This document shows, piece after piece, positions 55-19,772 of a stretch of DNA of 64,000 nucleotides. The notes beneath the pieces are model-generated. The model saw only the letters and a list, made by a program, of their open reading frames with translations, searched no databases and was not told the DNA's origin. The first letter of the stretch is position 1; every line of letters starts with the position of its first letter. Made by a program: the position numbers and the translations under genes. The DNA is from Cyanobacteriota bacterium. GTDB taxonomy: Bacteria > Cyanobacteriota > Cyanobacteriia > PCC-6307 > Cyanobiaceae. The stretch is taken from assembly GCA_046052125.1 (NCBI GenBank), contig JBJOMY010000001.1:672001-736000 (forward strand), written 5' to 3'.

Positions 55-273
55 ATGGCCATTCCCCAAGGCCCCGTCTGCGAAGTCCGCCTGCTTGTGG
101 TTCACCGCTATGAGCCCGGTGTCAGGAAGCTCGGCACCGCCCCACGGCAGGTCGAGTTCTTTGGTCGGCGCGGCAAGCCCGTCAAGAAGATGCGGCTGAT
201 CCCTGCCGAGAAGGCGTTCGCTTTTGCCCGCAAGCTGCAGGGCACACCCGGCTGCACCGTTTCGGTCTGCTGA
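55..273 (+). CDS. Small basic hypothetical protein; paralog of 35126..35341
   Basis: ATG at 55; shares GRRGKPVKK(M/L)RLIPAE and a C-terminal TVSV with the protein at 35126..35341. Confidence 0.75.
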   Translation: MAIPQGPVCEVRLLVVHRYEPGVRKLGTAPRQVEFFGRRGKPVKKMRLIPAEKAFAFARKLQGTPGCTVSVC

Positions 274-317
274 GCCCTCAGGGCTCAGGCCCGGCTGCCA
301 GTTGGTGGCCGGGCTTT
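274..317 (+). terminator. Hairpin(s) after the small ORF, probable terminator
   Basis: GCCCGGC-TGCCAGTTGGTG-GCCGGGC followed by TTT. Confidence 0.4.
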
Positions 318-358
318 GAGTAGTGGGCTGGCAAATGTGGATTTAGCCCATCGAGACC

Positions 359-658
359 ATGGCCACCCGCACCCGCAAGAGCGGCACCGGAAAGAGCAGC
401 ACCAGCAAACAGCGGCGCAGCTCACGAGGCAGCAGCGGTGCAACAGCTGTCGCTCCCACGCTGCCTGGCATCAGTGCAACCGAGCGGCGCAAGCTGGCCC
501 AGGAGGAAGCCCGCTGGCGGGCCGAAAGTGATCTGCGCACCCTGCGGCAGGCAGAAGAGATCCGCCGGGATCCCGCCCGGCTCAAACGGGCAGCCTCCAT
601 GGCCGAAGAGGAAATGAAGGCGCTGCAGGCGGTCCGGGCGATCAAACGGGGGCGTTGA
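359..658 (+). CDS. Basic phage-type hypothetical protein
   Basis: 99 aa; K/R/S-rich N-terminus and helical RWRAESDLRTLRQAEEIRRDP C-terminus. Confidence 0.65.
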   Translation: MATRTRKSGTGKSSTSKQRRSSRGSSGATAVAPTLPGISATERRKLAQEEARWRAESDLRTLRQAEEIRRDPARLKRAASMAEEEMKALQAVRAIKRGR

Positions 659-665
659 AATTGCC

Positions 666-941
666 TCAAAGGCAGGCTCGATAGCGGCTGCGCTGCCGGC
701 GGGCCCGGGCTTTGGAGCGAGCACTGCCGAACTGGGGACTGCTGCCGTCACGGCGGCGCCGCACCCAGATGCCGCGGCGAATCAGCCGAGAGTCGTCGGG
801 ATTGGCGCGGCGGGCGGCCACGATCGCCCCATAACCCTTCTTCTGCTTGCACTCGGCGCGGGAGCGGGCCTGGCTGGCGCTGGCGGCCGGCACCACTGTT
901 GCTGTGGAGCGGTTGCGCCAGAACACCAGATACCAGACCAT
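666..941 (-). CDS. Arg-rich hypothetical protein, last gene of the leftward structural operon
   Basis: 91 aa ORF directly after the scaffold-like gene; purine-rich leader (GCAGAGGGA-ATG). Confidence 0.6.
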   Translation of the reverse strand: MVWYLVFWRNRSTATVVPAASASQARSRAECKQKKGYGAIVAARRANPDDSRLIRRGIWVRRRRDGSSPQFGSARSKARARRQRSRYRACL

Positions 942-961
942 TCCCTCTGCCCCTTCTGCAA

Positions 962-1930
962 TCAGCGGCGCGGTGCAGCTGCCCTGGGTGTGGTGCCCTT
1001 CACGGCCTCCAGGTAGAGCTCGGCGGTGCTCAGGGTCTGCAGATTCACCGTGCCGCCGTGTTCATGGCCGCTTTCCGGCACAGCAGCGGAATAGAGGCCA
1101 CTGCGCTGCTGGAACAGGAAGCTGTACACCGGGTGGCGGCGCAGCTCCTCCATGTAGTCGCCATCGGAGAGGGCAACGCCATCGACGGTGAGGGGCTGGC
1201 CCTTGCCGTCCACCGGCAGCAACCGCTCGCGGCCGTCCACCTCACCCAGCTGGAAGTGGCCGCCGCAGAGCGTCACAAAGGTGTCAAAGAACGTGCCCCG
1301 CTCATCACCGCCGACGCGGCCTTCCGCCTCTGAGAACAGGCGCTCCATCAGGCGTTCCTTGCGCAGGTTCAACACCTGAGAGCGGGCCTCGTCTCGTTCT
1401 TTCTCCACACTGCGTACGCGGCGCAGGTTGGCCTCGTTGAGCTGGCGCTCACGGTCGGCCACCTGCCGCTCGAACTCTTCCCGCTTGCGCTCGGCGTCCT
1501 GCAAGCGGGCGTACTCATCTGGGTTGATCTCGGAGAAGCGGGACAGCTGGGCACGGGCCTTGCGCAGCTCTTTTTCCAGCTGGTTGCTGCGGCGGCGTTC
1601 AGCCCGCAGGGGATCAGCACCGCTGGTGCTGGCGGCGGGAGGGTCGTCGCTGTCGCTGCCGCTGCCGCCGGGGCCGCTGCTGGGATCGGGTGGGGCAGCG
1701 GGATCGAGGTTGTCGTCGTTGCCGCCCAGGTCCACGCCGCCAAGGTCGTCCTCGTCGGGCTCGAGGGGGTCAGGGTCAGCGCCAGCTGGGGCACTGGAGC
1801 CAGCGGGGCCCTGGTTGGGCTGCTGCTGGTGCTGGCTGTAGGCCTGCCATGGAGCAGCAGGGACCTGGGGCGCTGGAGCGGTGCCGCTGCTGGAGCGGCA
1901 GGAGTCAGAAAAGAAAGAGGAGGGCATCAC
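962..1930 (-). CDS. Putative capsid scaffolding protein
   Basis: Acidic low-complexity N-terminus, long coiled coil (LRAERRRSNQLEKELRK...), downstream of portal. Confidence 0.55.
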   Translation of the reverse strand: MMPSSFFSDSCRSSSGTAPAPQVPAAPWQAYSQHQQQPNQGPAGSSAPAGADPDPLEPDEDDLGGVDLGGNDDNLDPAAPPDPSSGPGGSGSDSDDPPAASTSGADPLRAERRRSNQLEKELRKARAQLSRFSEINPDEYARLQDAERKREEFERQVADRERQLNEANLRRVRSVEKERDEARSQVLNLRKERLMERLFSEAEGRVGGDERGTFFDTFVTLCGGHFQLGEVDGRERLLPVDGKGQPLTVDGVALSDGDYMEELRRHPVYSFLFQQRSGLYSAAVPESGHEHGGTVNLQTLSTAELYLEAVKGTTPRAAAPRR

Positions 1931-3165
1931 CCATCACGGCTGTGGTGCTGCGGGCGCCCCGTCCGGGCTGCGCTCGCACTCCCTGTTGCCAGCTCTTCAG
2001 AACCCCTGCTCAGTGACTCATCCAGCACTGGTGCGGAGCGCCTCGCTGGCAGATAGATCCACTCCCCAGCCGGCAGCGGCGTGGAGGGCAGATAGCCCGG
2101 AACCAGCAGCAGCGTCCCCGCAGAGATGGGAGTGGTGGAGCGGTAGACGGGCAGCAGCAGGGTGCTGCCGGTAGGTAGGGGTTCGCTGCTGGGCCAGCTG
2201 CTCAGCTCGGGGTTGAACTGCCGCAGCAGGGAGAGGCTCAGGTTCTGACTCTCCGCCACGCTGCTGAGCGTCTCGCCCTCGGTGGTGACGTAGGGCTCGC
2301 TCTGCTGCAGCACCGGGTTGAGGCTGCGCAGCTTGCTTTCGGTGGTGCCGTGCCGTCCGGCCAGCACCGCCAGCGAATCGCCCTCCACGGCAGTGATCGT
2401 CTGGGTGCTCTCCAGTTGCGGGTTGATTCGCCGCAAGGTGGCCACGGTGGTGCCGTAGCGCTCGGCGATCAGGGTCAAGGTGTCGCCAGAGCGGAGCACC
2501 AGCACGCTGTGGGGCCTGAGCACCAGCTGGATCGCTTCCCCCAGCAGCGGCTGCACCAGCAGGCCGATGCCACCGGGTCCGTAGTCCGCCCCGAAGTGCT
2601 GCACCAGGCAACCGGCGAACTGGGCACGGCCCCCATTGGGCAGCCCGCCCTCGGGCGTGAGCTGGGCCAGGTCGCCCAGCCACATCACCCCCTGGCAGGG
2701 CGCCTGCACCGTGCCCAAGAGCTCCGGATCCCAGGGCAGCGGTGCCTCATCGCGGAAGCCAGGGGTGGTCCAATCCAGCTCGGCCGCCAGCCAGTCGAAG
2801 GTGTTGCTGGTGCTCACCGGCAGGATCGCAGCCCTGCAGAGGTAACCGCGCAGAAGGACGTCGCCCGGGTCGGTGAGGGCGGTGTCGTTGTAGCCGCTGA
2901 CGATCCCCTGCTGCTCCAGGAAGCAGTCGATCACGTGGCGGCGGATCGGCACGGGGTTGCGGCTCTCGGGCCGGTCCACCTCAAACAGGCAGAGGCGGGC
3001 ATTGGCATAGGGCTGCAATGCCAGCCAAAGAGGTGCAGCAACAGGCGGGGCCATCCGGATGTCGATCGCCGGACTGGCCGCAGGCTGCGCCACCAGCTGG
3101 CCCCACAACGGGGCCTGTCGCAGGGGGTTGAGGCCCTGGTTCAGCGGCGAGAGGGGCTGCTCCAT
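1927..3165 (-). CDS. LysM-domain protein (three LysM units, nested)
   Basis: GDTLTLIAERYGTTVATLRRINP, GDSLAVLAGRHGTTESKLRSLNP and GETLSSVAESQNLSLSLLRQFNP. Confidence 0.85.
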   Translation of the reverse strand: MEQPLSPLNQGLNPLRQAPLWGQLVAQPAASPAIDIRMAPPVAAPLWLALQPYANARLCLFEVDRPESRNPVPIRRHVIDCFLEQQGIVSGYNDTALTDPGDVLLRGYLCRAAILPVSTSNTFDWLAAELDWTTPGFRDEAPLPWDPELLGTVQAPCQGVMWLGDLAQLTPEGGLPNGGRAQFAGCLVQHFGADYGPGGIGLLVQPLLGEAIQLVLRPHSVLVLRSGDTLTLIAERYGTTVATLRRINPQLESTQTITAVEGDSLAVLAGRHGTTESKLRSLNPVLQQSEPYVTTEGETLSSVAESQNLSLSLLRQFNPELSSWPSSEPLPTGSTLLLPVYRSTTPISAGTLLLVPGYLPSTPLPAGEWIYLPARRSAPVLDESLSRGSEELATGSASAARTGRPQHHSRDG

Positions 3166-3168
3166 TTC

Positions 3169-3666
3169 TCAGCCCCGCACCAGGGATCCCCGGAAGGGGT
3201 CGGGGTTGCACTGGCGCCAGTTCTGCAGCCGCGGCAGCAGCAGCGCCAACTGGCCGATGTGCTGGCTGCGCTGCCGCCCCAGCACCATCGCCGGTGATGG
3301 TCCCGAGGGGTTCCACTCGCTCTCAGTTTCCTCCAGCAACAACTCGGTGGCGTACTCCACCACCGCCAACTTGCTGAGTGGCAGAGGGTTGGGCACCACC
3401 CCGCCGGCAACCCCTCTGCGGCTGCTGCGCACCGGGGCGTTGAGATCGGCATGCGTCAGGGCCGCTAGCTGCTGATCCAGTTCAGCAATGGCATCGAGAT
3501 GGCCCTGGGCCGTGCAGACGCCGGTGGGGTAGTGGGTCTGCAGCTGGGCCATCTCCCGGTTCAGCGCCGCCAGGGCAGCACTGGTGACCGGGATAGAGAG
3601 CGCGATCCGCAAGGCCTCGGCGTCGCCAGGGCGCCAGGTGCAGGTGGGTGGGGAGGACTGGGTCAT
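3169..3666 (-). CDS. Hypothetical protein, possibly a head-tail adaptor
   Basis: 165 aa, GGGAGGGC RBS, directly downstream of portal; function inferred from position only. Confidence 0.55.
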   Translation of the reverse strand: MTQSSPPTCTWRPGDAEALRIALSIPVTSAALAALNREMAQLQTHYPTGVCTAQGHLDAIAELDQQLAALTHADLNAPVRSSRRGVAGGVVPNPLPLSKLAVVEYATELLLEETESEWNPSGPSPAMVLGRQRSQHIGQLALLLPRLQNWRQCNPDPFRGSLVRG

Positions 3667-3682
3667 GCCCTCCCTTGCCAGC

Positions 3683-5260
3683 TCAGTCGCCAGGGATCGC
3701 CAGCCCCAGCTGCTTGCGCAGCTCGGTCGCGTCGATCACCCCCCGTTCATGCAGCACCAGCCACTCCTGCACCGAGGGCTCGGGTTTGCGCGGCGGCTGG
3801 GGCGGCACCAGCGGGCAGATCTCCACCGTGCAGGCCGGTTCATCGGAGAGCTTCTCGCCGGTGAGCCGGGTCCACTGCAGCAGCAGGGTGCTGAGCATCG
3901 AGCGTTTCTGACCGGCCAGCGACTGCAGCACCGCAAAGCTCTGGCCGGCGGTGAGCGAGACCTCCAGCTCGGTTCGGGCCGGGCCGTGGCCGCCGGTGGG
4001 GATCAGGGCATCGCGGCGCATGGCTTCTTCCAGCTGCTGCAGGTAGGCCCGGTGCTCCGCCAGCGACCGCGCTTCTATTTCGACCCACTGGAACTTGGCT
4101 CCCTCGGGCAGGTCCATGAAAGAGGAGGTAGAGAGCACCAGCCGCTGCGGACGCTGGCCTTCTGCACCGCTGCTTGCAGCAGAGCCCAGGGCGCCGTCGC
4201 TGCGGCGGAAGCCGTAGGCGTCCACCAGGCCGGTGCGGACTCCAACCGGCAGAGCGGTGCGAGAGAGGAGGTCTTCGTATTCGCTGCGGCAGCGGTAGTG
4301 GTTGAGGTACTGGTGCGCCAGACCCAGGTGAGGGAGATCGCCCTTGCCAAAGGCAGTGCCATCTACCGAGTACCAGAGGGCCGGCAGGTCAAAGCGCTGG
4401 GGCAGCAGCGAAGGCTCGCCCACCGGCACCACGTCGTAGCCATCGGGGGCAGCCGGGTTGGGGCTGGCCTGCCAGCTGCGGAGCACCAGGCCTTCATCCG
4501 TCACAGAGAGGCTGCGGTAGAGCCAGGCCGCAGGGTCCGGCACCAGGCCGCCATGGGCATCGATCACCACCGTGGGCACGGCGGCATTGCCACTGGAGAA
4601 GCGGGGCGGCAGGGCCTGCCGGCGGGGTTCCCTCCAGGCGATCTCCACGGGCCCTGACGCCGGTGCAGCCGTGGCGGCATCGGTGGGCAGGCGCCAGTTG
4701 AGCAGGTCACCACGAGGCACCAGCTGCAGGCGGGGCAGCGAGAGGCGGTCTCCCTTGGCGAGAGCCTCCAGCCGGTCGCCTTCCGAGGGCCAGCGGTGCT
4801 GGGGCGGCAGCTGCAGGATCAGGCAGCCGCCATCTCGCAGGGTGAGCAGGTCGGCCAGGAACAGGAACACCCCCAGGTCGGTGCCCTGGCCGTCCACATC
4901 GGTGGCAATCCGACTCAGGGAGTCGGGCAGCTGCTGCCAGGCCAGCCGGGACAGCATGCCGGCGTAGGTGCGGAGGGCATCGCGGTAGAAGCCGGAGGGA
5001 CGGGCGGCCTCCAGGCGCTTGAGATAGGAGGTCTCAGGCTCCTCAATGCCCCGGGGCAAGTAGACCGGGCGGCGGCTGGTGCCGTCTGGGAGCTCCAGCA
5101 GGGTCCAGCAGTCGTAGACCAGCTGCAGGCGCTCCCGCAGGCCGGAGAGGGTGGGGTGTTCCAGCCAGGGGGGATCAGCAGAGGCTTGGGGCTGCGTCTT
5201 GGGTAGGGAAGTGGAGCTGCTGGTGGTGGCTGCTGTCCTGCGTCGGTGGGGTGCGGTCAC
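3683..5260 (-). CDS. Phage portal-like protein (DUF4055-like)
   Basis: YLPRGIEEPETSYLKRL N-terminal motif and LAHQYLNHYRCRSEYEDLL, typical of DUF4055 portals; start uncertain (ORF open to 5323). Confidence 0.75.
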   Translation of the reverse strand: MTAPHRRRTAATTSSSTSLPKTQPQASADPPWLEHPTLSGLRERLQLVYDCWTLLELPDGTSRRPVYLPRGIEEPETSYLKRLEAARPSGFYRDALRTYAGMLSRLAWQQLPDSLSRIATDVDGQGTDLGVFLFLADLLTLRDGGCLILQLPPQHRWPSEGDRLEALAKGDRLSLPRLQLVPRGDLLNWRLPTDAATAAPASGPVEIAWREPRRQALPPRFSSGNAAVPTVVIDAHGGLVPDPAAWLYRSLSVTDEGLVLRSWQASPNPAAPDGYDVVPVGEPSLLPQRFDLPALWYSVDGTAFGKGDLPHLGLAHQYLNHYRCRSEYEDLLSRTALPVGVRTGLVDAYGFRRSDGALGSAASSGAEGQRPQRLVLSTSSFMDLPEGAKFQWVEIEARSLAEHRAYLQQLEEAMRRDALIPTGGHGPARTELEVSLTAGQSFAVLQSLAGQKRSMLSTLLLQWTRLTGEKLSDEPACTVEICPLVPPQPPRKPEPSVQEWLVLHERGVIDATELRKQLGLAIPGD

Positions 5261-5617
5261 TGCCTGCTGTTTGTGGCCAATGCTCTTGCCAGGGGGAGGG
5301 AAATGATGGCAATGACAAACCATGCAGGATGGGTATGCTTTGTAATGAGTCTCAGCTCAATTCAGGACACACAGTCGGGAGCCCATTGGATTCACATTAA
5401 ATACCCCTCCCAAGAACCCGACGGAATGAAATCTTAATCCCATCCTTCATAACGCCAATCACGATCAGCCAATGAACACTGCAAGCTTAGACTCTTATGT
5501 GGAATACAGAAGGTCTTACAGCCTGGCTGCGCAGAGATTATTCAGGTTGATCTGGAGGATGTAATATTCACAAAGGGTTTTTCAGATGCTGGCACTCGCG
5601 ACGAGGAGCACAAGACT

Positions 5618-6250
5618 ATGCTGAACCTACAACAACAGCGAGTCTACGATTGGCTCAACAACGAGCTTGAACTCCCGGTTTTTGCCGAAGCCTATAAAGG
5701 CGCTGCGACTTTCGTGGAACAGAAACCCTCAGGCTATATTTCATTTGTAGCCCATGCTGGCAGGGACTTGATGAATTGTCTTGCATCAACTGTTGCAAAC
5801 ATCAAGTCGAGTCGCGTGCAATACCAACAACACATTGACGAGTTGCAGTCTCACTGGCGAGAAGAGTGGCGACTAAGCAATGAGCTCTCCCCAGATACAG
5901 CCGAGGGAGGATACCTAATACCCATTTTTATATGCAAAAAGATCTCTACCCTGATTGACGATCATAAATCAGGCCGCGTGAGAAGCGCGGATGCCGATGG
6001 CTTGTTCTTTAGCACATTTCTTGATTACTCAGATAAAGAAAAAATCCCAAAGAACTTCGTTTTAGAATGGAAACGCGCAAAAGAGTGGTTTCTTGGACAT
6101 GTTCATCTTCGTGGCAAACCATTCGACAAAGGCGCCGACGATGCCCTGAAAATACATTTCAAATGTCTGGAAAGCTATCTCTACATAGCCGCTAGCAGCC
6201 AGTATGACAGACTGAGGAAACTGAATGAAATCCTGGAAGCAACCAACTGA
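5618..6250 (+). CDS. Hypothetical alpha-helical protein, possibly a HEPN-like nuclease (candidate defence gene A)
   Basis: 210 aa, lower GC than the flanks; AHAGRDLMN and WFLGHVH motifs. Confidence 0.7.
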   Translation: MLNLQQQRVYDWLNNELELPVFAEAYKGAATFVEQKPSGYISFVAHAGRDLMNCLASTVANIKSSRVQYQQHIDELQSHWREEWRLSNELSPDTAEGGYLIPIFICKKISTLIDDHKSGRVRSADADGLFFSTFLDYSDKEKIPKNFVLEWKRAKEWFLGHVHLRGKPFDKGADDALKIHFKCLESYLYIAASSQYDRLRKLNEILEATN

Positions 6251-9988: not shown

Positions 9989-10004
9989 CGCCTTCTCTCC
10001 TCCC

Positions 10005-12699: not shown

Positions 12700-15446
12700 G
12701 CTCCGGGGCCTGTGAGCATGGCCAGGGGCAGGGCCACGGCCCGCGAGCTGCCCAGGCCGCGGAAGTGCACCAGCAGAGAGCGGTTGGCACCGGGCAGGCG
12801 GCTGAGGATCGCCCCCCAGTTGGTCACCCAGGCGGTATCCGCCAGCATGCGGCCGATGGCTTCTGCGCTGTTGCTGATCAGCAGCTCCCCATCCCGCACC
12901 CGCAGGCCATGGCGGGCCAGCAGGTCGGCGGCATCGGCAGGCCGCACCGGCTCCATTGGTGAGGGCATGGCAGTTGACACCAGCTCCACCAGTTCCAGCA
13001 CCGTGCGGGTCACCGCCGAGCGCTCCTCGCTCTCCACCCGCAGCTGGTGCTGCAGGATCCGGTTGAGGCAGCGGCGCTCATCCGGGATCTCCGTGCTCTC
13101 GCGGTAGCTGCTCCAGTCCGCGCCATCGATCAGGCTCTGCACCTCCGCCGCGCTGGGCACCCGCGAGGCCTGCAGCGACCAGGCGCCGGCCAGCAGGGTT
13201 CCGTACTGGTCACCCAGGGCCTGCGAATCGAAGTGGGCCGCCGCCACTCGGGAGCAGACGGTGATCGAGCGGCGGATCACCGGGATCAGCGCCACGGTGC
13301 GGGCGATCAGCCGGTTGGCGAACGCCGGGGTAATCAGCTGCTCGAGGTCCCGGTCCAGCGCCTGCCAGTGGGCCTCCCGTTGCTGCTGGGGCAGCTCACT
13401 GGGATTGCGCAGGTTGAGCGGAGCAAAGCGGCGCCGGTCGGCGCCCTGCTTGAGCCCGGTGGCGATGGAGGAGAGCAGGAACATCGAGCGCACCGAGTAG
13501 CGCGCCACCTCCCCGCCAGGGGAGCCCTTCACGATCGCCGCGCGGGATTCGGAGCTCGCCACCCGGGCCAGCGCCAGGATCGCCTGGATGCGCTGCTGGT
13601 CCTCGCGCTCGTTGCTCTCGGCTTCATCGATCAGCACGGGCAGGGCATCGGAGCGCAGGGTTTGGCGGATGCCGGCTTCTGTGACGCTGCCCACAAATAC
13701 CCGGGCCATGTCGGCGAGCAGCACGCCACAGAAACGCTCAAAGAGGTGCGACTTGCCCGAGCCGGCCGGGCCGCTCAGCCAGAGGTGGGGCCGCCAGCGC
13801 AGGGCACCGCAGATCGGCGCCAGCGTCACCCAGCCAGCCAGGAGCATCGCCGAGGCCGGCACCTCCCAGTGGAAGCGGTCCGCCAGGGTGAGCACCAGCA
13901 GGGCTTCTTCATCAGAGAGCGGCTGGGCATCAGCTGTGCCCACCAGGGCCGCACCGCGCTGGTAGTGGAAGCGGCTGTTGAGGGTGGCGCTGATCGGCCG
14001 CGGCTCGCCGTCCACCACCAGGCGGTCGCCGAGATGGAGCACGCAACGGCCCTCGTCCCACCAGATGCCGCGGCCGCGCAGCAGGTCGGGATCGAACATG
14101 CCGATGGCGGCCTGACGGCAAAACAGATCGGAGGCCGCGGCCGTCCAGTTCACGCCCCGCTTGGAGGGGTAGAGGGTCTCCCAGTAGGCCAAGGGCGCCA
14201 GGCGGCAGAGGTTCACGCCGCCATGGGCAGACGAGCCCAGCCGCATCACCTGGCCGGTGGAGCGGGGTTGGTAGAAGTAGCCGTCGCTGTCGTAGCCCAG
14301 GCAGACGAACGGCTCGGCGCCTGAGGGAAGCGGACGCTCGGGCGGCTCCGGCGGCAGGTGATCGCCAGCACCGCCCTGTTTGTCAGGAGGCGGATCAACC
14401 GCCGGAGCTTGGGTGTCGGCGGCGGCATCGAGGACCGGATGCAGCACGGTTCTGCAGTGGCTCTCCAAGTAGGCCTGGGCTTCTGCAGGGCTCCAGCTGG
14501 CATCGGCCAGATCCCAACCGGCTGCGCCCGGCGCATCCACCAGGTCCCAGTCCTCCTCCGTACAGCTCGGTGGCAGCACCACCGCTACAGGGCAGCCCAG
14601 CTCCAGCAGCAGTGCCGCCAGCCGGGCCATCGCCTCGCGGCCGCTGCTGTCGGCATCGGGCCAGAGGGTGACGGCGCGGCCGGCCAGGGGGCTCCAGTCC
14701 ACGCTGGCGATGGCCTGGCTGCCGCCGCACCAGCTCACCACCACGTGATCGGGAAACAGCCCCACGGCGGCATCGGCCGCCTTCTCCCCCTCGGTGATCA
14801 GCACCGGCGCCCAGAAGTGGCGCTCCAGTTCTGCCAGCCGGTACAGGGGCCGGGGGGCCGGCCAGTCGGAGCGAAAGGGATCGCGGCGGGAGGGAAAGTG
14901 CCAGCCGCCATCCAGCCAGGTGCGCTGCACAAACACCTTGCGGCGCCGGCCGCCCTGCTCCAGTTCCAGCCGCTGCACCCAGAACAGCGGCGCTCCGGCC
15001 GCATCGGTGTAGCACCACTGGCCGCTGGCGCGGCCCAGCTCCGGCGGGGGAGCATCGACCGGCGGGGTGTCTGGGATGCGGGCAGGTCGGCCCGCCTTGC
15101 GGCCAGAGCGGCTGGGGCTGGCAGGGGCTGGACGATGCGGGCCTGGCTCCGCCGGCAGGCCCAGGTGGGCCTCAATGCGGCGGGCGGCGGTGGCGAAGTC
15201 CCACCCCGTCAGGCGCAGCAGCAGATCCATGCCGTTGCCGCCGCCACCACGGTGATCACGGCCGCCGCACTGGTTGCAGAACCAGCCACCCGGGCCGTCA
15301 TCACAGTCCCAGCGGTAGCGATCGGTGCCGCCGCAGGCGGGGCAGGGCTGATGGCGGTTCTCCAGCTGCTCCGGCGCCAGACCGGCGAGCTCGATCAGCA
15401 GCCGCGGCCACTGGCCCGCCGCGGCCGCCATCACGTCGGTGGCCAT
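12678..15446 (-). CDS. P4-alpha-like primase-helicase (zinc finger, TOPRIM, helicase)
   Basis: HQPCPACGGTDRYR...WFCNQCG; EGEKAADA, WPDAD; GPAGSGKS and LIDEAE. Confidence 0.9.
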   Translation of the reverse strand: MATDVMAAAAGQWPRLLIELAGLAPEQLENRHQPCPACGGTDRYRWDCDDGPGGWFCNQCGGRDHRGGGGNGMDLLLRLTGWDFATAARRIEAHLGLPAEPGPHRPAPASPSRSGRKAGRPARIPDTPPVDAPPPELGRASGQWCYTDAAGAPLFWVQRLELEQGGRRRKVFVQRTWLDGGWHFPSRRDPFRSDWPAPRPLYRLAELERHFWAPVLITEGEKAADAAVGLFPDHVVVSWCGGSQAIASVDWSPLAGRAVTLWPDADSSGREAMARLAALLLELGCPVAVVLPPSCTEEDWDLVDAPGAAGWDLADASWSPAEAQAYLESHCRTVLHPVLDAAADTQAPAVDPPPDKQGGAGDHLPPEPPERPLPSGAEPFVCLGYDSDGYFYQPRSTGQVMRLGSSAHGGVNLCRLAPLAYWETLYPSKRGVNWTAAASDLFCRQAAIGMFDPDLLRGRGIWWDEGRCVLHLGDRLVVDGEPRPISATLNSRFHYQRGAALVGTADAQPLSDEEALLVLTLADRFHWEVPASAMLLAGWVTLAPICGALRWRPHLWLSGPAGSGKSHLFERFCGVLLADMARVFVGSVTEAGIRQTLRSDALPVLIDEAESNEREDQQRIQAILALARVASSESRAAIVKGSPGGEVARYSVRSMFLLSSIATGLKQGADRRRFAPLNLRNPSELPQQQREAHWQALDRDLEQLITPAFANRLIARTVALIPVIRRSITVCSRVAAAHFDSQALGDQYGTLLAGAWSLQASRVPSAAEVQSLIDGADWSSYRESTEIPDERRCLNRILQHQLRVESEERSAVTRTVLELVELVSTAMPSPMEPVRPADAADLLARHGLRVRDGELLISNSAEAIGRMLADTAWVTNWGAILSRLPGANRSLLVHFRGLGSSRAVALPLAMLTGPGALEGAAL

Positions 15447-15631
15447 CAGCGCCGGGGGCTCTGGGCTCCAGCGGGCGGTGCAGGTTGCTGCGGGTTGAGC
15501 GGGCGCCCCTCACCCCGCATCACCTGCACCAGGGTCCGCCGCACAAAGGAGGCGCGGCTCTCGATGCCGGCGGCGTGGTCGTCAATCCAGGAGACGACAG
15601 CCTCCGGCAGCTGCAGCTGGATGCGCTTCAT
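15446..15631 (-). CDS. Ribbon-helix-helix DNA-binding protein
   Basis: MKRIQLQLPEAVVSWIDDHA...SRASFVR, a CopG-like pattern. Confidence 0.7.
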   Translation of the reverse strand: MKRIQLQLPEAVVSWIDDHAAGIESRASFVRRTLVQVMRGEGRPLNPQQPAPPAGAQSPRR

Positions 15632-15712: not shown

Positions 15713-17107
15713 GTGTCCTTCAGCCTGCGCCCCTACCAGCAGGACGCCGTTGCCCGCGTGCGGCAGGCGTTCATGGCTGGCCACCGCGCCGTGCTCTTTG
15801 TCCTGCCCACCGGTGGCGGCAAGACCGTGGTCTTCAGCCACATCGCCGAGCAGGCCTCCGCGCGCGGCAACCGCATCGCTGTGCTGGTGCACCGGGCTGA
15901 GCTGCTCGATCAGGCCTGTCGCTCCCTGGCTGCCATGGGAGTGCGCCATGGCGTGATCGCCGCCGGCCGCTCGATGAACCTGGCCGCACCGGTGCAGGTG
16001 GCCAGCGTCCAGACCCTCGCCCGGCGTCTGCATCAGCTGCCGGCCGATCTATTCCAGCTGCTGGTGGTGGATGAGGCGCACCACAGCAATGCAGGCACCT
16101 GGGCCAAGGTGATCGGCCACTTTGATCGAGCCCTGCTGCTGGGGGTCACGGCCACGCCGGTGCGGGGCGATGGCCGCGGCCTGGGGGAGTTCTATTCAGC
16201 CCTGGTGCTCGGCCCCAGCGCCGCCTGGCTGTGCGCCGAGGGTTACCTGGCGCCGGCGCGGGTGTTCGCCCCGCCGCTGGGGTTCTCGGTGAAGGGCCTG
16301 CGCCGGCGGATGGGGGACTTCGATCTCAACCAGGCGGCCGGTCAGCTGGGCGGCAGCCGGATCCTCGGCGATGCCGTCAGCCACTACCTCAGCCACCTGA
16401 GCGGCCGCACCGCCATCGCCTTCTGCTGCTCAATCGCCCATGCCCAGGCGGTGGCCCAGGCGTTTGTGGAGCGGGGTGTGGCCGCGGCCTCGATCGATGG
16501 CGCGATGGACACCCTGCAGCGGCGGCGGTTGCTGGAACAGCTCGGCAGTGGTGAGCTGCAGGTGCTCACCAGCTGCAACCTGATCGGCGAGGGGGTGGAT
16601 GTGCCCTCGGTGGGAGGCTGCCTGCTGCTACGGCCCACCCAGAGCCTGGCGCTGCACCTGCAGATGATCGGCCGCTGCCTGCGGCCCCAGCCCGGCAAGG
16701 AGGCGGTGATCCTCGATCACGTGGGCAACATCGAGCGCCTGGGCCACCACCTCGATGAGCAGGAGTGGAGCCTGGACGGGGTGCGCAGGCGCGAGCAGAG
16801 CAAGGCCCCCTCCGTGAAGACCTGCCCGGAGTGCTTCTGCGCCATGGCCAGCGCCGTCAGCACCTGCCCGGAATGCGGGCACCAGTTCCGGCCGGAGAAG
16901 CGCCAACTGGTCACGGTGGCCGGCGAACTGAAGGAACTGCACCAGCAGGAGCTGCGCCGCCAGCGCAAGCGGGAGCAGAGCCAGGCCCGCACCGCCGCGG
17001 AACTGGAGGCCCTGGGCGCCCAACGCGGCATGAAGAACCCGAAGGGCTGGGCGCGGCATGTGATCGCTAGCCGCCAGACGCGGGGGCAGTGGGGGCTGCT
17101 GGCATGA
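15713..17107 (+). CDS. SF2 DEAD/DEAH-box helicase with C-terminal zinc ribbon
   Basis: PTGGGKT, DEAH, TATP, QMIGRCLR, CPEC...CPEC. Confidence 0.9.
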   Translation: MSFSLRPYQQDAVARVRQAFMAGHRAVLFVLPTGGGKTVVFSHIAEQASARGNRIAVLVHRAELLDQACRSLAAMGVRHGVIAAGRSMNLAAPVQVASVQTLARRLHQLPADLFQLLVVDEAHHSNAGTWAKVIGHFDRALLLGVTATPVRGDGRGLGEFYSALVLGPSAAWLCAEGYLAPARVFAPPLGFSVKGLRRRMGDFDLNQAAGQLGGSRILGDAVSHYLSHLSGRTAIAFCCSIAHAQAVAQAFVERGVAAASIDGAMDTLQRRRLLEQLGSGELQVLTSCNLIGEGVDVPSVGGCLLLRPTQSLALHLQMIGRCLRPQPGKEAVILDHVGNIERLGHHLDEQEWSLDGVRRREQSKAPSVKTCPECFCAMASAVSTCPECGHQFRPEKRQLVTVAGELKELHQQELRRQRKREQSQARTAAELEALGAQRGMKNPKGWARHVIASRQTRGQWGLLA

Positions 17108-17463
17108 GCGAACAGGAACTGCAGCAGCGCATCCGGCTGGAGCTGGGCCGGGGCCCGGTGCGGTTGTGGCGCAACAACGTCGGCGCCCTGCGCGATGAAC
17201 GCGGCCGGCTGGTCACCTACGGACTGTGCAAGGGCAGCAGCGACCTGATCGGCCTCAGCCAGGTGCTGATTGGCCCGGAGCACCTCGGCCAGACCCTGGC
17301 GGTCTTCTCCGCCCTTGAGGTCAAGACCACCAAGGGCCGCATCAGGGAGGAGCAGGAGAAGTTCCTGCAGCTGGTGCAGCAGCTCGGCGGCCGCGGCGGC
17401 GTGGTGCGCTCAGTGGAAGAAGCCAGGCTCCTGCTCGGCGGCAGTAGCGGGATCTCCGCCTGA
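17104..17463 (+). CDS. VRR-NUC domain nuclease
   Basis: GSSDLIG...ALEVKT...EQEKF PD-(D/E)xK pattern; ATGA overlap with the helicase. Confidence 0.8.
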   Translation: MSEQELQQRIRLELGRGPVRLWRNNVGALRDERGRLVTYGLCKGSSDLIGLSQVLIGPEHLGQTLAVFSALEVKTTKGRIREEQEKFLQLVQQLGGRGGVVRSVEEARLLLGGSSGISA

Positions 17464-17709
17464 GGACGCACCGGCAGCACAGGGACGGGCAGCAGGGCGC
17501 TGGGCGTGGAGCACCCGGCGGCTGCGGCGCGCCAGGGCCTTCTCCACTTCAGGGACATTCCAGAGCAGGGTGGGCCGCTGCAGCCCAGCACCAGCGGCCC
17601 TGAAGTGATCGCCGGGACGCAGCACCCCATCACGGCGCAGCCGCAGCAGCGTGCGGTCACTGATCCGCAACGCCTTGCAGGCTTCCCGGGTGGAATGGGT
17701 GAACTCCAT
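17410..17709 (-). CDS. Excisionase/AlpA-like HTH protein
   Basis: STREACKALRISDRTLLRLRRDG MerR-like HTH, downstream of the integrase. Confidence 0.7.
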   Translation of the reverse strand: MEFTHSTREACKALRISDRTLLRLRRDGVLRPGDHFRAAGAGLQRPTLLWNVPEVEKALARRSRRVLHAQRPAARPCAAGASSGGDPATAAEQEPGFFH

Positions 17710-18016
17710 TGCTCGTCATCAGGCGACTTGCCGGGACATTAACCGCAGAAAACTGCCATCAACTGCCCCATTCACGGGTATGTCGACATCTACCAATAGG
17801 TTCCCTTTCGGCAATCCTTAGAGATCAGAAGTTGAACCAAGTTCATCATTCTGGGAACCCAACCGGTAACCCACTGCGGCGCAAGCCAAGGGCCCGGAAC
17901 CCTGATGGGAACACGATCAACGGCTGAGCGGGATAACCCAAGGGGCAACAGACCGCAGGCATCAAGAGCGAGGCGGGGAGAGCATCGCCCTTGATGTCTG
18001 CGCAAGAGCCGACGCA

Positions 18017-19552
18017 TCAACCTCGTGCGCTGAGGGCCATCAGCTGCCGGGCGAGGTTGAGCAGCTCTGGGGTGACCTCCTCCGGCAGACCAGCAGCAGG
18101 CGCTGCAGGTGAAGCCAGCTCAGGCATCGGAATGGACGCGGCCGGCAGCGGTGCAGCAGGCGCAATCGCAGGAGCAGGGCGCTGGCCCTCATCGAGAGCC
18201 TTCTGCAAGGCCATCCCCCGCTCAATCTGCTGGGCGGTCTGCTCCACCAGGTAGCGGCGGGCGTGGATCACCTCGCTGTGGCCCATCGCCTGGGCCTTGA
18301 GCGCTGTCGACCAGGTGGTCGTCTCGCGGGCACGGATCGCCCAGGCATGGCGCAGGTCATAGGCCTTGCAGCGGCCCTGCACCGGCGGCGGCTGGGGCCG
18401 GCCCGGGAGGCTTCTGGGGTGATGCCAGCCGAGCAGCTTGACCTTGATCTCACCAGCGGGCTTGGTGGCATGCCGCAGCCAGTGCACCACCACCCGGCCC
18501 AGGGCGGCATTGTTCCAGAACTGGACGCTGCCGTCGCTGGCTTCCGCAGTGCGGATGGGGTAACGCCGGCGCAGCTCGGCCAGCATGGCCCTGGAGTGGA
18601 CCACGTCGTTGAGGCGGTAGCGCTCCAGCCACTCCTCCGGCAGCGGCAGCGCAAAGCGGTGGCCGGTCTTGGTGGCCTGCTCACCATGGCTTTCGAACAT
18701 GCTGATCTGCAGGAAGGTGGGCTCGACGCTGCTTTCGCCAGGCAGCCGCTCGATGTGCCACACCTCGTGGGCCCGCAGGCCGTAGCAGGCAATAACGGCC
18801 ATCACCCAACCCCGCAAGGGGTTTTCCTGCTGCACCTGATCCAGCCAGGCCTCCACCTCAGCCGTGGAGGGGATGAAGCGTGGGGCGGGCGTGCGGACCC
18901 TGCCGCTGGAGTTTTTGAGGCCCTCGAGCTTGGCGCGCAGCTCCGGCGTGGCGATGGAGACCCCCCGCTTGGCCAGGTAGTTCACCATCTGCACCACCCC
19001 GTGAAAGCTGCTGGTGTTGGTCTTGCGAGGCACCAGGGGCTGGGAGCGATCGCGGGCCTGCGCATCCAGCGACGCCGGGGTGTGCAGACAGAAGCGCTCC
19101 AGCTCTTCCGTGCGGGCGAAGGCCTCGTCAGGGAAGGTACGCCCGAAGTACCCCCGGTCGGTGAAGCAGGAGAAGGGGTTGCGGTCCTTGGCTTTGGGGC
19201 CACCCGGAGCAATGTCGGCTTTGATCAGCGATCTGATCTCTCCCCATGTCTGCAAGGGGCCGCAATCAGCAGGAGGTTGTTCACCCGGAGCCAGGTGCAG
19301 CCGCCGCCAGTCGAGCCCTGGCCCGCCGCGCAGCAAATTTCGCTGAGCCGCCAGCAGTAGCTCTACCAATTCGCCGAGATCACCATCCCGGTCGATCCGA
19401 TAGCCGCGGGCGGACTGGCTGCGACCACCTGCACGGGTTTCGTACACGTAGTAGTAGGGACTGTTCCGCCCTGGATGCAGCCGAATCCGATAAGGACAGG
19501 CAGCAAGGCGTAAGCGACAGGAGGCCTGCTGCAGAGCACTACGGGGCTGCAT
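18017..19552 (-). CDS. int: Tyrosine recombinase/integrase
   Basis: YGLRAHEV, KTGHR, YDLRHAWAIR, MGHSEVIHARRY catalytic motifs; adjacent to the tRNA fragment. Confidence 0.9.
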   Translation of the reverse strand: MQPRSALQQASCRLRLAACPYRIRLHPGRNSPYYYVYETRAGGRSQSARGYRIDRDGDLGELVELLLAAQRNLLRGGPGLDWRRLHLAPGEQPPADCGPLQTWGEIRSLIKADIAPGGPKAKDRNPFSCFTDRGYFGRTFPDEAFARTEELERFCLHTPASLDAQARDRSQPLVPRKTNTSSFHGVVQMVNYLAKRGVSIATPELRAKLEGLKNSSGRVRTPAPRFIPSTAEVEAWLDQVQQENPLRGWVMAVIACYGLRAHEVWHIERLPGESSVEPTFLQISMFESHGEQATKTGHRFALPLPEEWLERYRLNDVVHSRAMLAELRRRYPIRTAEASDGSVQFWNNAALGRVVVHWLRHATKPAGEIKVKLLGWHHPRSLPGRPQPPPVQGRCKAYDLRHAWAIRARETTTWSTALKAQAMGHSEVIHARRYLVEQTAQQIERGMALQKALDEGQRPAPAIAPAAPLPAASIPMPELASPAAPAAGLPEEVTPELLNLARQLMALSARG

Positions 19553-19591
19553 CAGCGCCTCCCCGTCTCACGGAATGAGACGCGTGGGAGA

Positions 19592-19609
19592 TCTGTACCT
19601 AGGTACAGA
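19592..19609. promoter_or_regulatory. Perfect 18-bp palindrome upstream of int (LexA-like or Int site)
   Basis: TCTGTACCTAGGTACAGA with a GTAC-N4-GTAC core. Confidence 0.5.
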
Positions 19610-19727
19610 AATGGGTCAAAAGGGGTCCGAAGTGGTCGTCTCGTGTCCCGACCTGTCGGACGTTGGCGATTCATGAGATCCAGCTCCCTGAGAGGGAACT
19701 GGGGCCAAAAGTCGGCTGGGACTGGAA

Positions 19728-19772
19728 TGGGTCGCCTGAGATTCGAACTCAGGACCAATCGGTTAAAAGCCG
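19728..19772 (-). mobile_element. att core: 3' half of tRNA-Lys(UUU)
   Basis: Reverse complement CGGCTTTTAACCGATTGGTCCTGAGTTCGAATCTCAGGCGACCCA contains the anticodon arm, T arm and 3' acceptor strand; no D arm or 5' half upstream. Confidence 0.85.

What the first reader, a model, noticed from the sequence alone, without database searches (positions are those of the whole stretch)
55..19772. tRNA-Lys-integrating element with terminase, portal and scaffold but no visible capsid or tail: candidate new cyanobacterial phage satellite
Seen: int, xis, VRR-NUC, helicase, RHH, P4-like primase-helicase with iterons, terS, terL, a sigma factor, portal, an unknown gene, a LysM protein and a scaffold-like gene. 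The leftward operon ends at 666 against convergent small genes, where a major capsid gene would normally follow the scaffold. Known: P4, PICIs and tycheposons combine an integrase, a primase and partial packaging genes. Inference: this element supplies its own motor, portal and scaffold and borrows capsid and tail from a helper, a combination I do not recognise in the described classes.
Basis: partly seen in the sequence, partly recalled or inferred. Interest (0 to 1): 0.8.

Follow-up and report, generated by a model that had tools for sequence, protein, structure and literature searches.

The report
Capsid-encoding, apparently tail-less cyanobacterial mobile element
The stretch is one end of a 72-kb virus-like element whose capsid gene lies just outside the window; it belongs to a widespread, well-conserved family in freshwater picocyanobacteria that encodes a complete virus head and many anti-phage defence genes but no recognisable tail.

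Summary
The central claim, no capsid gene, is a window-edge artefact.

The element spans about 72.3 kb (contig C1 619392-691726) between two tRNA-Lys fragments. It carries a head and packaging module related to cyanosiphovirus S-CBS2, fibre-like genes, a cell-wall/lysis-like block, replication and recombination genes, two sigma factors and about 35 kb of defence cargo (DISARM, a Dsr1-like gene).

Relatives share the capsid protein at 96-99% identity across many Vulcanococcus, Cyanobium and Synechococcus genomes. One relative is a perfect 56-kb tandem dimer at tRNA-Gly. Another is a 49.9-kb contig with terminal repeats. Capsid dN/dS is 0.04.

No tail tube, tape measure, sheath, baseplate or neck gene was recognised in any copy examined, and the longest gene after the capsid gene is 348 aa.

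My leading reading (0.4) is a capsid-forming element that needs tails from a helper phage. The close rival (0.33) is an autonomous phage with an unrecognised minimal tail. It is not a cf-PICI, P4 or tycheposon member.

The parts
1..273 (+). 3' end of a 256-aa gene (C1 671503-672273), part of the conserved + strand block between the scaffold and capsid genes
   Evidence: ORF; conserved in relatives at 37-96% aa; no family hit
359..658 (+). 99-aa basic protein, last gene of the + strand block; the overlapping - strand ORF 343-669 looks like a wrong-strand artefact
   Evidence: Sequence read; no family hit
666..941 (-). 91-aa basic protein, last gene of the portal-to-scaffold operon
   Evidence: Found in 22 related loci at 48-92% aa; dN/dS 0.21
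962..1930 (-). Head scaffolding-like protein (322 aa)
   Evidence: phrog_206 E 5.3e-11; 29% identical to the S-CBS2 gene next to its capsid gene
1927..3165 (-). 412-aa protein with three LysM repeats; N-terminal ~215 aa unknown; sits where minor head or ejection proteins usually lie
   Evidence: PF01476 E 1.2e-18; PDB matches cover the LysM part only; dN/dS 0.15
3169..3666 (-). 165-aa helical protein conserved next to the portal in all subfamilies; function unknown
   Evidence: 332 homologues, all 'hypothetical'; AF2 pLDDT 56, no usable fold match
3683..5323 (-). Portal protein (546 aa)
   Evidence: phrog_145 E 4.1e-18; DUF4055 E 2.2e-9; 29% identical to the S-CBS2 portal
5618..9125 (+). Low-GC (0.47) cargo insertion: 210-aa unknown plus 966-aa Dsr1-like defence candidate, in a variable hotspot between sigma and portal
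   Evidence: GC; PADLOC Dsr1 E 7.7e-19; other genes occupy this site in relatives
9281..9988 (-). Sigma-70 family factor directly after terL, the same order as in S-CBS2
   Evidence: Sigma70_r2 E 1.5e-11; phrog_351 E 3.4e-17; S-CBS2 terS-terL-rpoS order
10005..11903 (-). Large terminase; the true start is probably about 80-100 codons inside this ORF
   Evidence: phrog_38 E 2.6e-75; 37% identical to S-CBS2/S-CRES terL from residue ~124; relatives are 521-548 aa
11660..12214 (-). Putative small terminase (184 aa), assigned by position only
   Evidence: No family hit; 69.5% identical paralogue upstream of terL on contig C3
12408..12699 (.). Iteron field: 11 TCTAAC sites in both orientations; candidate replication origin, or a pac or regulatory site
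   Evidence: 11 of 15 window sites lie here; 0 of 100 shuffles reach 15; repeats
12678..15446 (-). Primase-helicase (922 aa) with N-terminal zinc ribbon and Toprim
   Evidence: Zn_Ribbon_Prim E 1.6e-10; phrog_35358 E 3.7e-130
15446..15631 (-).
   Evidence: No family hit
15713..17107 (+). SF2 DNA helicase (464 aa)
   Evidence: ResIII E 1.1e-31; Helicase_C E 2.3e-14; phrog_16 E 2.1e-103
17089..17463 (+). VRR-NUC nuclease (124 aa)
   Evidence: PF08774 E 2.1e-8; phrog_93 E 5.3e-14
17410..17709 (-). HTH_17 (excisionase/AlpA-type) DNA-binding protein, weak match
   Evidence: PF12728 E 4e-5, 24.2 bits against a cut-off of 27
18017..19552 (-). 511-aa probable divergent tyrosine recombinase (integrase)
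   Evidence: No family hit. Paralogues of 36% and 27% identity lie beside the intact tRNA-Lys and a tRNA-Met. The only local BLASTP similarity to a relative's weak Phage_integrase/XerD-type protein covers two short motif regions
19727..19772 (-). 46-nt 3' fragment of tRNA-Lys(ttt): att site between this element and the next element to the right
   Evidence: 97.8% identical to C1 738247-738292; aligned with the other two copies

Best explanation
The finding is the right-hand 19.7 kb of a 72.3-kb integrated, phage-derived element (C1 619392-691726), bounded by two 3' fragments of tRNA-Lys.

SHOWN.
- It encodes a complete head and packaging set related to cyanosiphovirus S-CBS2: putative terS, terL, portal, scaffold, capsid protein and a jelly-roll accessory protein. 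The capsid gene and what follows it lie left of the window.
- It also encodes fibre-like proteins, a cell-wall/lysis-like block, a primase-helicase with an iteron field, a helicase, VRR-NUC, RecT/Rad52-type recombination genes, two sigma factors and about 35 kb of defence and other cargo.
- It belongs to a widespread, mobile family under purifying selection.
- No copy examined carries a recognisable tail or neck gene.

INFERRED MECHANISM.
1. The divergent tyrosine recombinase excises the element at the tRNA-derived att sites.
2. The primase-helicase replicates it from the iteron field.
3. The element's own sigma factors switch on the virion operons.
4. terS/terL fill self-made capsids decorated with fibres.
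5. The cell-wall block helps release.
6. Because no DNA-delivery tail is encoded, the filled heads most likely become infectious only after joining tails made by a co-infecting tailed cyanophage. That would be a large capsid-forming, tail-borrowing element.

I put about 0.9 on the anatomy (steps shown) and about 0.4 on the tail-borrowing step.
For: CAPSID OUTSIDE THE WINDOW. L001:13345-14283(-) hits phrog_212 at E 4.9e-54 and PF20911 at E 2.1e-12. Its best phage relatives are PSS2 (41%) and S-CBS2 (40%). terL's best relatives are the same phages.

BOUNDARIES. There are three copies of the 46-nt tRNA-Lys core. In relative G014 the genes at the far left end of this element directly follow the helicase/VRR-NUC genes, as expected for one circular element.

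MOBILITY AND ACTIVITY.
- In G017, 50,412 bp are 100% identical at an offset of 56,093 bp, ending inside tRNA-Gly.
- IMG/VR record G063 is 49,900 bp, is classed as having direct terminal repeats, and has a 99-bp identical overlap at its ends.
- Related elements sit at tRNA-Lys, tRNA-Gly and tRNA-Pro.
- The capsid protein occurs in 54 loci of genome contigs at mostly 96-99% aa identity.
- It was found in 10 of 36 same-genus genomes and in 0 of 24 genomes of other families.
- Median dN/dS: capsid 0.04, portal 0.09 (one pair only), jelly-roll protein 0.10, fibre-like p225 0.24.
- Contigs from 4 of 4 RNA-library runs laid (3 studies) cover the sigma, fibre, capsid and cell-wall genes.

NO TAIL FOUND.
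- Pfam and PHROG scans of the called ORFs of this copy gave no tail, neck or baseplate hit.
- The same holds for G017 (66 ORFs by Pfam), for the ORFs of G063 that lack a counterpart here (37 by Pfam, 14 by PHROGs), and for the C3 paralogue. The only 'tail' hits are collagen-repeat fibre matches.
- After the capsid gene there are only 4-6 genes. The longest is 348 aa here and 673 aa in any subfamily.
- None of S-CBS2's tail genes has a tblastn match in this genome.
- PF10145, PF05709 and PF04984 have no hit in this 99.96%-complete genome, while the control genomes do respond.

THE GENES AFTER THE CAPSID GENE LOOK HEAD-ASSOCIATED.
- p144 folds confidently (pLDDT 81.6) into a jelly-roll beta-sandwich. 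Phage capsid accessory and cement proteins are among its tied weak matches (Z 5.7-6.5).
- p225 shares 44% identity over 89 residues with a protein that carries the phi29 head-fibre domain PF11133.
Against: - Absence of profile hits does not show absence of a tail. S-CBS2's own virion proteins are mostly annotated 'unknown structural protein', and five conserved proteins here remain unassigned: p165, the N-terminal part of the LysM protein, the WPVH-motif protein, p80 and p64.
- No head-tail adaptor or connector was recognised. A tail-borrowing capsid would need these to dock a foreign tail.
- The element has features unusual for known satellites: 50-72 kb in size, its own cell-wall/lysis-like genes, its own sigma factors, and fibre genes that vary between subfamilies as receptor-binding proteins do.
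- No candidate helper is identified, and this genome holds no tailed prophage that I could detect.
- My gene calls come from a crude GC3-based script and produced at least two wrong-strand artefacts.
- The RNA-library evidence rests on assembled contigs. It cannot prove transcription or rank genes.
- A terminal repeat on a metagenome contig shows a circular or concatemeric template, not packaging.
Confidence: 0.4

Rival explanations
1. An autonomous temperate phage with a very small, so far unrecognisable tail. The tail would be built from the conserved unknown proteins next to the portal (p165, LysM protein), from the 7-bladed propeller p348, or from both. The fibre proteins would act as its receptor binders. 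On this reading it is the first widespread functional prophage family of picocyanobacteria.
For: - It has a full set of integration, replication, regulation, packaging, head, fibre and cell-wall genes.
- It is mobile, conserved and probably expressed.
- The distal genes of the virion operon vary between subfamilies as host-range genes do: propeller, collagen fibres, an LRR-like 673-aa protein.
- The LysM protein could be a wall-binding tail or ejection protein.
- Genome sizes of 50-72 kb are phage-like rather than satellite-like.
Against: - No adaptor, nozzle, tube, tape measure or baseplate was recognised in four full copies.
- The head genes' nearest relatives are long-tailed siphoviruses, yet no gene is long enough to be a tape measure.
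- The only proteins conserved across all subfamilies besides the head proteins are p165, the LysM protein, a jelly-roll protein and a largely disordered protein.
- p348 is missing from the C3, L068 and L076 subfamilies.
Confidence: 0.33
2. A domesticated or defective prophage family. It would be kept for its defence cargo or for a gene-transfer-agent-like or vesicle-like export of DNA, and would no longer be an infectious element in its own right.
For: - It carries large defence cargo: DISARM DrmD/MI/A/B/C, a GmrSD-like gene and a Dsr1-like gene here; Hma and PifA in G017; McrBC and Type I R-M in G063.
- There are several copies per genome.
- PHASTER-type tools have reported short 'prophage remnants' in related strains (passages of PMC6337551 and PMC9716671). 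I did not test whether those are the same family.
Against: - The copies sit at different tRNA sites with different integrases. There is a 100%-identical tandem dimer and a terminally repeated 49.9-kb contig.
- The capsid protein is 96-99% identical across species, which points to recent horizontal spread rather than vertical inheritance.
- terL, portal, capsid, primase and integrase reading frames are all open here.
Confidence: 0.15
3. One reading: a roughly 20-kb satellite with its own motor, portal and scaffold that borrows both capsid protein and tail from a helper.
For: Within the window alone no capsid gene is visible.
Against: - The capsid gene lies 5.7 kb beyond the window edge, in the same operon direction, and is conserved in synteny in all relatives.
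- There is no att copy near window position 55.
Confidence: 0.02

Closest known systems
Capsid-forming PICIs (cfPICI), as defined in de Sousa et al. 2023 (PMC10085698, passages read). Their tail-less capsids that join foreign tails are described in 10.1101/2025.02.11.637232 (start of the abstract seen only in the search listing).
   Same: An integrated element with its own terS/terL, portal and capsid genes and no tail genes. If the leading reading holds, the lifestyle is the same: make and fill its own heads, take tails from a helper.
   Different: No head-tail adaptor or connector was recognised, and these are cfPICI core markers. The element carries cell-wall/lysis-like genes, whereas holin profiles are 'forbidden' in the cfPICI model. 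It is 50-72 kb. It uses a scaffold rather than a prohead protease. It has its own sigma factors and fibres. Its head genes derive from cyanosiphoviruses. Its host is a cyanobacterium.
Cyanosiphoviruses S-CBS2, S-CRES1-3 and PSS2
   Same: They are the best phage relatives of the capsid protein (40-41%), terL (33-37%), portal (29%) and scaffold (29%). The order terS-terL-sigma factor is the same.
   Different: Those phages carry a long-tail module: tape measure, tail and tail-fibre genes. None of it is found here. This element is integrated and carries large defence cargo.
Tycheposons, including the PICI-like ones, of Prochlorococcus (10.1101/2020.12.28.424599, passages read)
   Same: Picocyanobacterial elements at tRNA genes with a tyrosine recombinase, primase/helicase and excisionase. 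They occur in tandem arrays and carry cargo.
   Different: Per that text, tycheposons 'lack these complex functional traits' (their own capsids). The PICI-like ones carry only a terS or a capsid gene and no cargo. This family has the whole head module plus cargo.
P4-type satellites
   Same: A zinc-ribbon primase-helicase with iterons, an AlpA/HTH_17-type protein, and integration next to a tRNA.
   Different: P4 has no capsid, portal or terminase genes (recalled from general knowledge, not from a call). Psu/Sid/Delta homologues were not searched for.
'Relic prophage' island of marine Synechococcus WH8016 (10.1101/325100, passages read)
   Same: A roughly 70-kb island at tRNA genes in a picocyanobacterium with an integrase and phage-like genes. 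Its authors also considered helper dependence.
   Different: That island has no recognisable structural proteins and has a split DNA polymerase. This family has an intact head module and no DNA polymerase.

Membership tests
cfPICI (SatelliteFinder definition, PMC10085698) | Own capsid, portal, terS and terL genes | tested here: met
   phrog_212, phrog_145 and phrog_38 hits. terS is assigned by position only.
cfPICI (SatelliteFinder definition, PMC10085698) | [quoted passage not shown] | tested here: inconclusive
   No Pfam or PHROG hit in any copy. Five conserved small proteins remain unassigned. The p165 model is too poor to judge.
cfPICI (SatelliteFinder definition, PMC10085698) | No tail genes | tested here: met
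   No tail tube, tape measure, sheath or baseplate hit. Only collagen-repeat fibre matches appear, in subfamilies.
cfPICI (SatelliteFinder definition, PMC10085698) | No holin or lysis genes (taken from the helper) | tested here: inconclusive
   The internal block holds a YkuD-domain protein (E 1.7e-6), a lysozyme-like PF18013 protein (E 7e-8) and an 88-aa protein with one hydrophobic segment. No holin profile hit was found.
cfPICI (SatelliteFinder definition, PMC10085698) | Sequence kinship of the core genes with known cfPICIs | not tested
   No cfPICI profile or sequence was available. The best relatives of the capsid protein and terL are cyanosiphoviruses.
Tailed temperate phage (Caudoviricetes prophage) | HK97-type capsid protein, portal, large terminase | tested here: met
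Tailed temperate phage (Caudoviricetes prophage) | Tail: at least an adaptor plus a tube or nozzle | tested here: inconclusive
   None recognised by Pfam, PHROG, tblastn with S-CBS2, or three whole-genome family searches. Unknown proteins remain.
Tycheposon (10.1101/2020.12.28.424599) | tRNA-site integration by a tyrosine recombinase, with primase/helicase hallmark genes | tested here: inconclusive
   The att fragment and the primase-helicase are present. The recombinase has no family hit. Kinship with tycheposon hallmark profiles was not tested.
Tycheposon (10.1101/2020.12.28.424599) | No capsid machinery of its own (at most a terS or a capsid gene) | tested here: not met
   The full head and packaging module is present.
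Tyrosine recombinase (for the 511-aa protein) | Match to Phage_integrase (PF00589) or Xer-type models | tested here: not met
   No hit at E <= 0.01 (Pfam) or E <= 0.1 (NCBIfam). Support is indirect: its position beside the att site, paralogues beside tRNA-Lys and tRNA-Met, and local similarity in two short motif regions to a relative's weak integrase. The R / H-x-x-R / Y motif assignment is read by eye against a recalled consensus.
DISARM class 1 (cargo, left of the window) | drmD, drmMI, drmA, drmB and drmC together | tested here: met
   PADLOC: DrmD E 2.6e-298, DrmMI E 0, DrmA E 2.7e-268, DrmB E 1.1e-77, DrmC E 4.6e-55.

The most novel reading that the evidence does not exclude
Freshwater picocyanobacteria host a family of 50-72 kb 'giant' capsid-forming satellites. 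These are phage-derived elements that excise, replicate, build and fill their own S-CBS2-type heads with head fibres, and help lyse the cell. They have lost the whole tail module, so they depend on tails from co-infecting cyanosiphoviruses. They also serve as the main vehicles of defence islands (DISARM, Hma, R-M, Dsr-like) between Vulcanococcus, Cyanobium and Synechococcus species.
Probability: 0.35. Interest if true: 0.85.

Novelty: new variant of a known kind. Interest (0 to 1): 0.62.

Why it matters
Lysogeny in picocyanobacteria is a long-standing puzzle. [quoted passage not shown]

This family is intact, under purifying selection, multi-copy and apparently active, and it occurs in record titles of strains such as Vulcanococcus limneticus LL, Synechococcus sp. 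WH 5701 and Cyanobium sp. Cruz-8D1. The question is therefore directly testable at the bench.

- If the particles are tail-less, this extends capsid-forming satellites to cyanobacteria and to a much larger size class.
- If they carry a tail, it is a new minimal tail architecture on a siphovirus-type head.
- Either way, the family moves tens of kilobases of anti-phage defence genes between species.

It also shows how a window edge can create a false 'missing capsid'.

Tried and rejected
- tRNA in the window: ARAGORN and Rfam found none. Only a BLAST of the real tRNA-Lys region found the fragments.
- Integrase: PDB phmmer gave only chance hits at E >= 0.1. Pfam and NCBIfam gave nothing.
- p144 and p225: PDB phmmer gave nothing usable. 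tblastn against 50,697 phage records gave no match at E <= 0.01.
- ESM Atlas gave only leads: a Bbp16-carrying cluster at score 0.92 for p144, and fibre families at 0.88-0.91 for p225.
- p165: 332 homologues, but the 120 listed are all 87-98% identical and unnamed. AF2 on 12 sequences gave pLDDT 56. The VIA search gave Z <= 6.3 on helical chains, which is noise.
- p144: Foldseek against PDB and BFVD gave no match at E <= 0.001. The best VIA score was Z 7.1, with unrelated sugar-binding and capsid-accessory jelly rolls tied, so a 'cement protein' role is compatible but not shown.
- WPVH-motif protein: 43 clusters at 50% identity. It has a conserved ~35-aa N-terminal motif, a long acidic disordered linker and a short conserved C-terminal motif. 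I did not fold it.
- The '344-aa' ORF downstream of the fibre genes is rejected as a gene. The real gene is a sigma factor on the other strand. The 108-aa ORF at window 343-669(-) is rejected likewise.
- Excision reads: not tested, because the two ends lie 72 kb apart and only contig-level runs were offered. RNA-run parts without cover (the low-GC insert, most of DISARM) are not evidence of silence.
- Literature searches found no description of this family. The 8-18 kb 'prophage' loci phiSynAce1/2 (PMC6337551) might be fragments of such elements. I did not test this, and I did not look at that paper's supplementary tables.
- Earlier-scan box TGGCAAYAG: see Noticed in passing. The counts are too small for a claim.

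Full report
1. WHAT IS IN THE WINDOW.

The window is contig C1 672001-736000 of a 2.64-Mb, 10-contig genome of about 64-65% GC. The source runs suggest it is a freshwater metagenome-assembled genome.

- scaffold-like 962-1930(-)
- LysM protein 1927-3165(-)
- unknown 165-aa gene 3169-3666(-)
- portal 3683-5323(-)
- sigma factor 9281-9988(-)
- terL 10005-11903(-)
- zinc-ribbon/Toprim primase-helicase 12678-15446(-)
- SF2 helicase 15713-17107(+)
- VRR-NUC 17089-17463(+)
- a weak HTH_17 protein 17410-17709(-)

The iterons are real: 11 of the 15 TCTAAC sites in the window lie in 12408-12699, and none of 100 shuffles reached 15 sites. A low-GC (0.47) insertion at 5618-9125(+) holds a 210-aa unknown gene and a 966-aa Dsr1-like gene.

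The putative terS, the 'RHH' and the 511-aa 'integrase' match no family.

2. THE tRNA AND THE BOUNDARIES.

Neither ARAGORN nor Rfam finds a tRNA in the window. The intact tRNA-Lys(ttt) lies at C1 738248-738319 on the complement strand, 2.2 kb beyond the right edge of the window.

A BLAST of that region finds two more copies of its 3' part:
- 46 nt at window 19727-19772 (97.8% identical).
- 142 nt at C1 619250-619391 (87% identical), 52.6 kb left of the window.

The locus is therefore a tandem array:
- Another element (A) occupies window 19773 to about 66247, between the fragment and the intact tRNA.
- The element in question (B) spans C1 619392-691726, 72.3 kb.
- Left of 619250 lies what looks like the remnant arm of a third element.

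Nothing marks window position 55 as an end.

The 511-aa protein next to the fragment has paralogues of 36% and 27% identity beside the intact tRNA-Lys and beside a tRNA-Met. Its only similarity to a relative's weak Phage_integrase/XerD-like protein lies in two short motif regions. I accept it as a divergent tyrosine recombinase by inference.

3. THE CAPSID GENE IS JUST OUTSIDE THE WINDOW.

Annotating the 60 kb to the left shows a 312-aa major capsid protein at C1 665345-666283(-), that is window -6655 to -5717. It hits phrog_212 at E 4.9e-54 and PF20911 at E 2.1e-12. Its best phage relatives are PSS2 (41%) and S-CBS2 (40%). These are the same cyanosiphoviruses that are nearest to terL, and S-CBS2 also shares the portal and scaffold.

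Between the scaffold and capsid genes lie two features:
- A conserved + strand block with a YkuD-domain protein, a lysozyme-like PF18013 protein, an 88-aa protein with one hydrophobic segment, and others.
- A 2.3-kb low-GC insertion that is specific to this copy.

4. WHAT FOLLOWS THE CAPSID GENE.

On the same strand come six genes.
- p144: AF2 pLDDT 81.6, a jelly-roll sandwich. Phage capsid accessory and cement proteins are among tied weak matches at Z 5.7-6.5. The ESM lead is Bbp16.
- p244: a conserved ~35-aa motif, an acidic disordered linker and a short C-terminal motif. The family comprises 43 clusters at 50% identity.
- p80.
- p225: fibre-like. It is 44% identical over 89 residues to a protein that carries the phi29 head-fibre domain.
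- p348: seven ~44-residue repeats, which suggests a beta-propeller.
- p64.

The next apparent ORF is a wrong-strand artefact over a second sigma-factor gene.

After that comes cargo:
- DISARM class 1 plus a GmrSD-like gene.
- An AAA_33/WYL protein, SNase and AbrB-like proteins.
- A two-component system, an AcrB pump and an EamA transporter.
- Gp157/Rad52, Fic, SSB and RecT/PD-(D/E)XK genes.

5. THE FAMILY.

The capsid protein recurs as follows:
- In 10 of 36 other genomes of the genus, and in 0 of 24 genomes of other families.
- In 54 loci of the species-representative genome collection, mostly at 96-99% aa identity, in Vulcanococcus, Cyanobium and Synechococcus (including WH 5701) and in lake MAGs. 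A few bins labelled as other phyla are probably mis-binned.
- In 9 IMG/VR loci.

This genome holds a second, roughly 50-60% identical copy on contig C3 at tRNA-Pro, with the same gene order.

In G017 a 56,093-bp unit is present twice in perfect tandem, ending inside tRNA-Gly(ccc). IMG/VR record G063 is a 49.9-kb contig with terminal repeats, so its template was circular or concatemeric. It has the same backbone and different cargo: McrBC, Type I R-M and a toxin-antitoxin pair. G014's gene order shows that the far-left genes of element B follow its helicase/VRR-NUC genes on the circular map.

Median dN/dS against up to 15 relatives, using ungapped hits only:
- capsid 0.04
- portal 0.09 (one pair)
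- p144 0.10
- p165 0.13
- LysM protein 0.15
- p225 0.24

Contigs from 4 of 4 RNA-library runs laid (3 studies) cover the sigma, fibre, capsid and cell-wall genes. This is only weak support for expression, because contigs cannot prove transcription.

6. IS THERE A TAIL?

I found none.
- Pfam and PHROG scans gave no tail tube, tape measure, sheath, baseplate, adaptor or connector hit. The scans covered the called ORFs of B, 66 ORFs of the G017 unit (PHROGs on only 6 of them), the ORFs of G063 without a counterpart in B (37 by Pfam, 14 by PHROGs) and the C3 copy.
- The only 'tail' PHROG hits are collagen-repeat fibre matches in the C3 and L068 subfamilies.
- In every subfamily the capsid gene is followed by only 4-6 genes before the operon ends. 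The last ones vary: propeller, collagen fibres, or an LRR-like 673-aa protein.
- S-CBS2's tail genes have no tblastn match in this genome.
- PhageMin_Tail, Sipho_tail and Phage_sheath_1 have no hit in the 99.96%-complete genome, while the control genomes respond.

Caveats: absence of profile hits is not absence of function. Five conserved proteins remain unassigned. My gene caller is crude.

7. MECHANISM AND ODDS.

Shown: the anatomy, the family, its mobility signatures and the purifying selection.

Inferred:
- excision by the recombinase
- replication from the iteron field
- sigma-driven late operons
- packaging into self-made heads that carry fibres
- release helped by the cell-wall block

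The delivery step is open. I give these odds:
- 0.40 that tails are borrowed from a helper cyanophage
- 0.33 that a minimal, unrecognised tail is encoded
- 0.15 that the family is domesticated, defective or GTA-like

8. COMPARISON WITH KNOWN SYSTEMS.

- cfPICI: the element would work like a cfPICI if it is tail-less, but it is not a member. No adaptor or connector was recognised, lysis-like genes are present, the size differs several-fold, and the head lineage differs.
- Tycheposons: these lack capsid machinery of their own.
- WH8016 'relic prophage': this has no structural genes.
- S-CBS2-type phages: these have long tails.

Eight literature searches found no description of the family. Short PHASTER 'prophages' in SynAce01 might be fragments of it, but I did not test this.

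I found that box three times here, upstream of virion genes.

9. VERDICT.

- The real object is larger and, in a different way, more interesting than the one proposed.

Noticed in passing
window 19773-64000 (continues to about 66247): A second integrative element (A) lies between the tRNA-Lys fragment and the intact tRNA-Lys. It has no virion genes. It carries relatives of S-CBS2's endolysin (46%), DnaG-type primase, DnaB helicase, sigma factor and gp079 (51%), plus Rad52/Gp157. It also holds a Res/Mod/DUF4391/SNF2/HNH defence cluster, an MNT-HepT pair, a P-type ATPase and its own 440-aa integrase paralogue. Two more copies of this second family are in the genome (C1 about 159-182 kb at tRNA-Met, C3 about 17-40 kb). 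On both C1 and C3 a copy lies close beside a head-encoding element (directly abutting on C1).
   Followed up: partly
window 5618-9125: A variable low-GC hotspot lies between the sigma factor and the portal. Here it holds a 966-aa Dsr1-like gene (PADLOC E 7.7e-19) plus a 210-aa unknown gene. At the same site the C3 copy has an OLD/AriA/PtuA-like ATPase, G017 has three genes including a Double-GTPase, and G063 has a 325-aa unknown gene.
   Followed up: partly
L002:12495-19777 and L001:630-8714 (C1 644495-660714): A complete DISARM class 1 set (DrmD, DrmMI, DrmA, DrmB, DrmC), with a GmrSD/HEC-05-like gene inserted between drmMI and drmA. It is carried as cargo of the element.
   Followed up: yes
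A one-mismatch copy lies upstream of p64. The counts are small: 3 in the window against 1.3 expected, and 2 in L001 against 0.34 expected.
   Followed up: partly
L019-L024 (G017 contig C18, 90001-210000): A 56,093-bp element is present as two 100%-identical tandem copies ending inside tRNA-Gly(ccc). Its cargo is an Hma-like system (HmaA/B/C hits) and a PifA/KAP NTPase.
   Followed up: partly
L001:10027-11073(-) and L001:11073-11750(-): p348 is built of seven ~44-residue repeats with a W-x-x-[VLI]-C-W motif. It shares a short N-terminal motif with the neighbouring fibre-like p225, which suggests a common docking site on the particle.
   Followed up: no
L001:12112-12846(-) and alignment A2: A protein family of 43 clusters at 50% identity has a conserved ~35-aa N-terminal motif (R-I ... 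W-P-V-H-L-x-G-W), a long acidic disordered linker and a conserved short acidic C-terminal motif. It is found right after the capsid-accessory gene in all subfamilies. Its function is unknown.
   Followed up: partly
L001 14671-17430 and 18197-18830: Contigs in public RNA-library runs skip these stretches. Related elements in lakes therefore lack this copy's low-GC insertion and its lysozyme-like gene, which only 6 of the 55 loci searched carry (54 from genome contigs plus the C3 paralogue).
   Followed up: partly
C1 619250-619345 against 738150-738247: The roughly 97 nt beyond the leftmost tRNA-Lys fragment resemble (87% over the whole 142-nt match, which includes the tRNA core) the arm next to the intact tRNA. 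A DUF429 gene is duplicated on both sides. This suggests the remnant of a third element, related to element A, left of element B.
   Followed up: no
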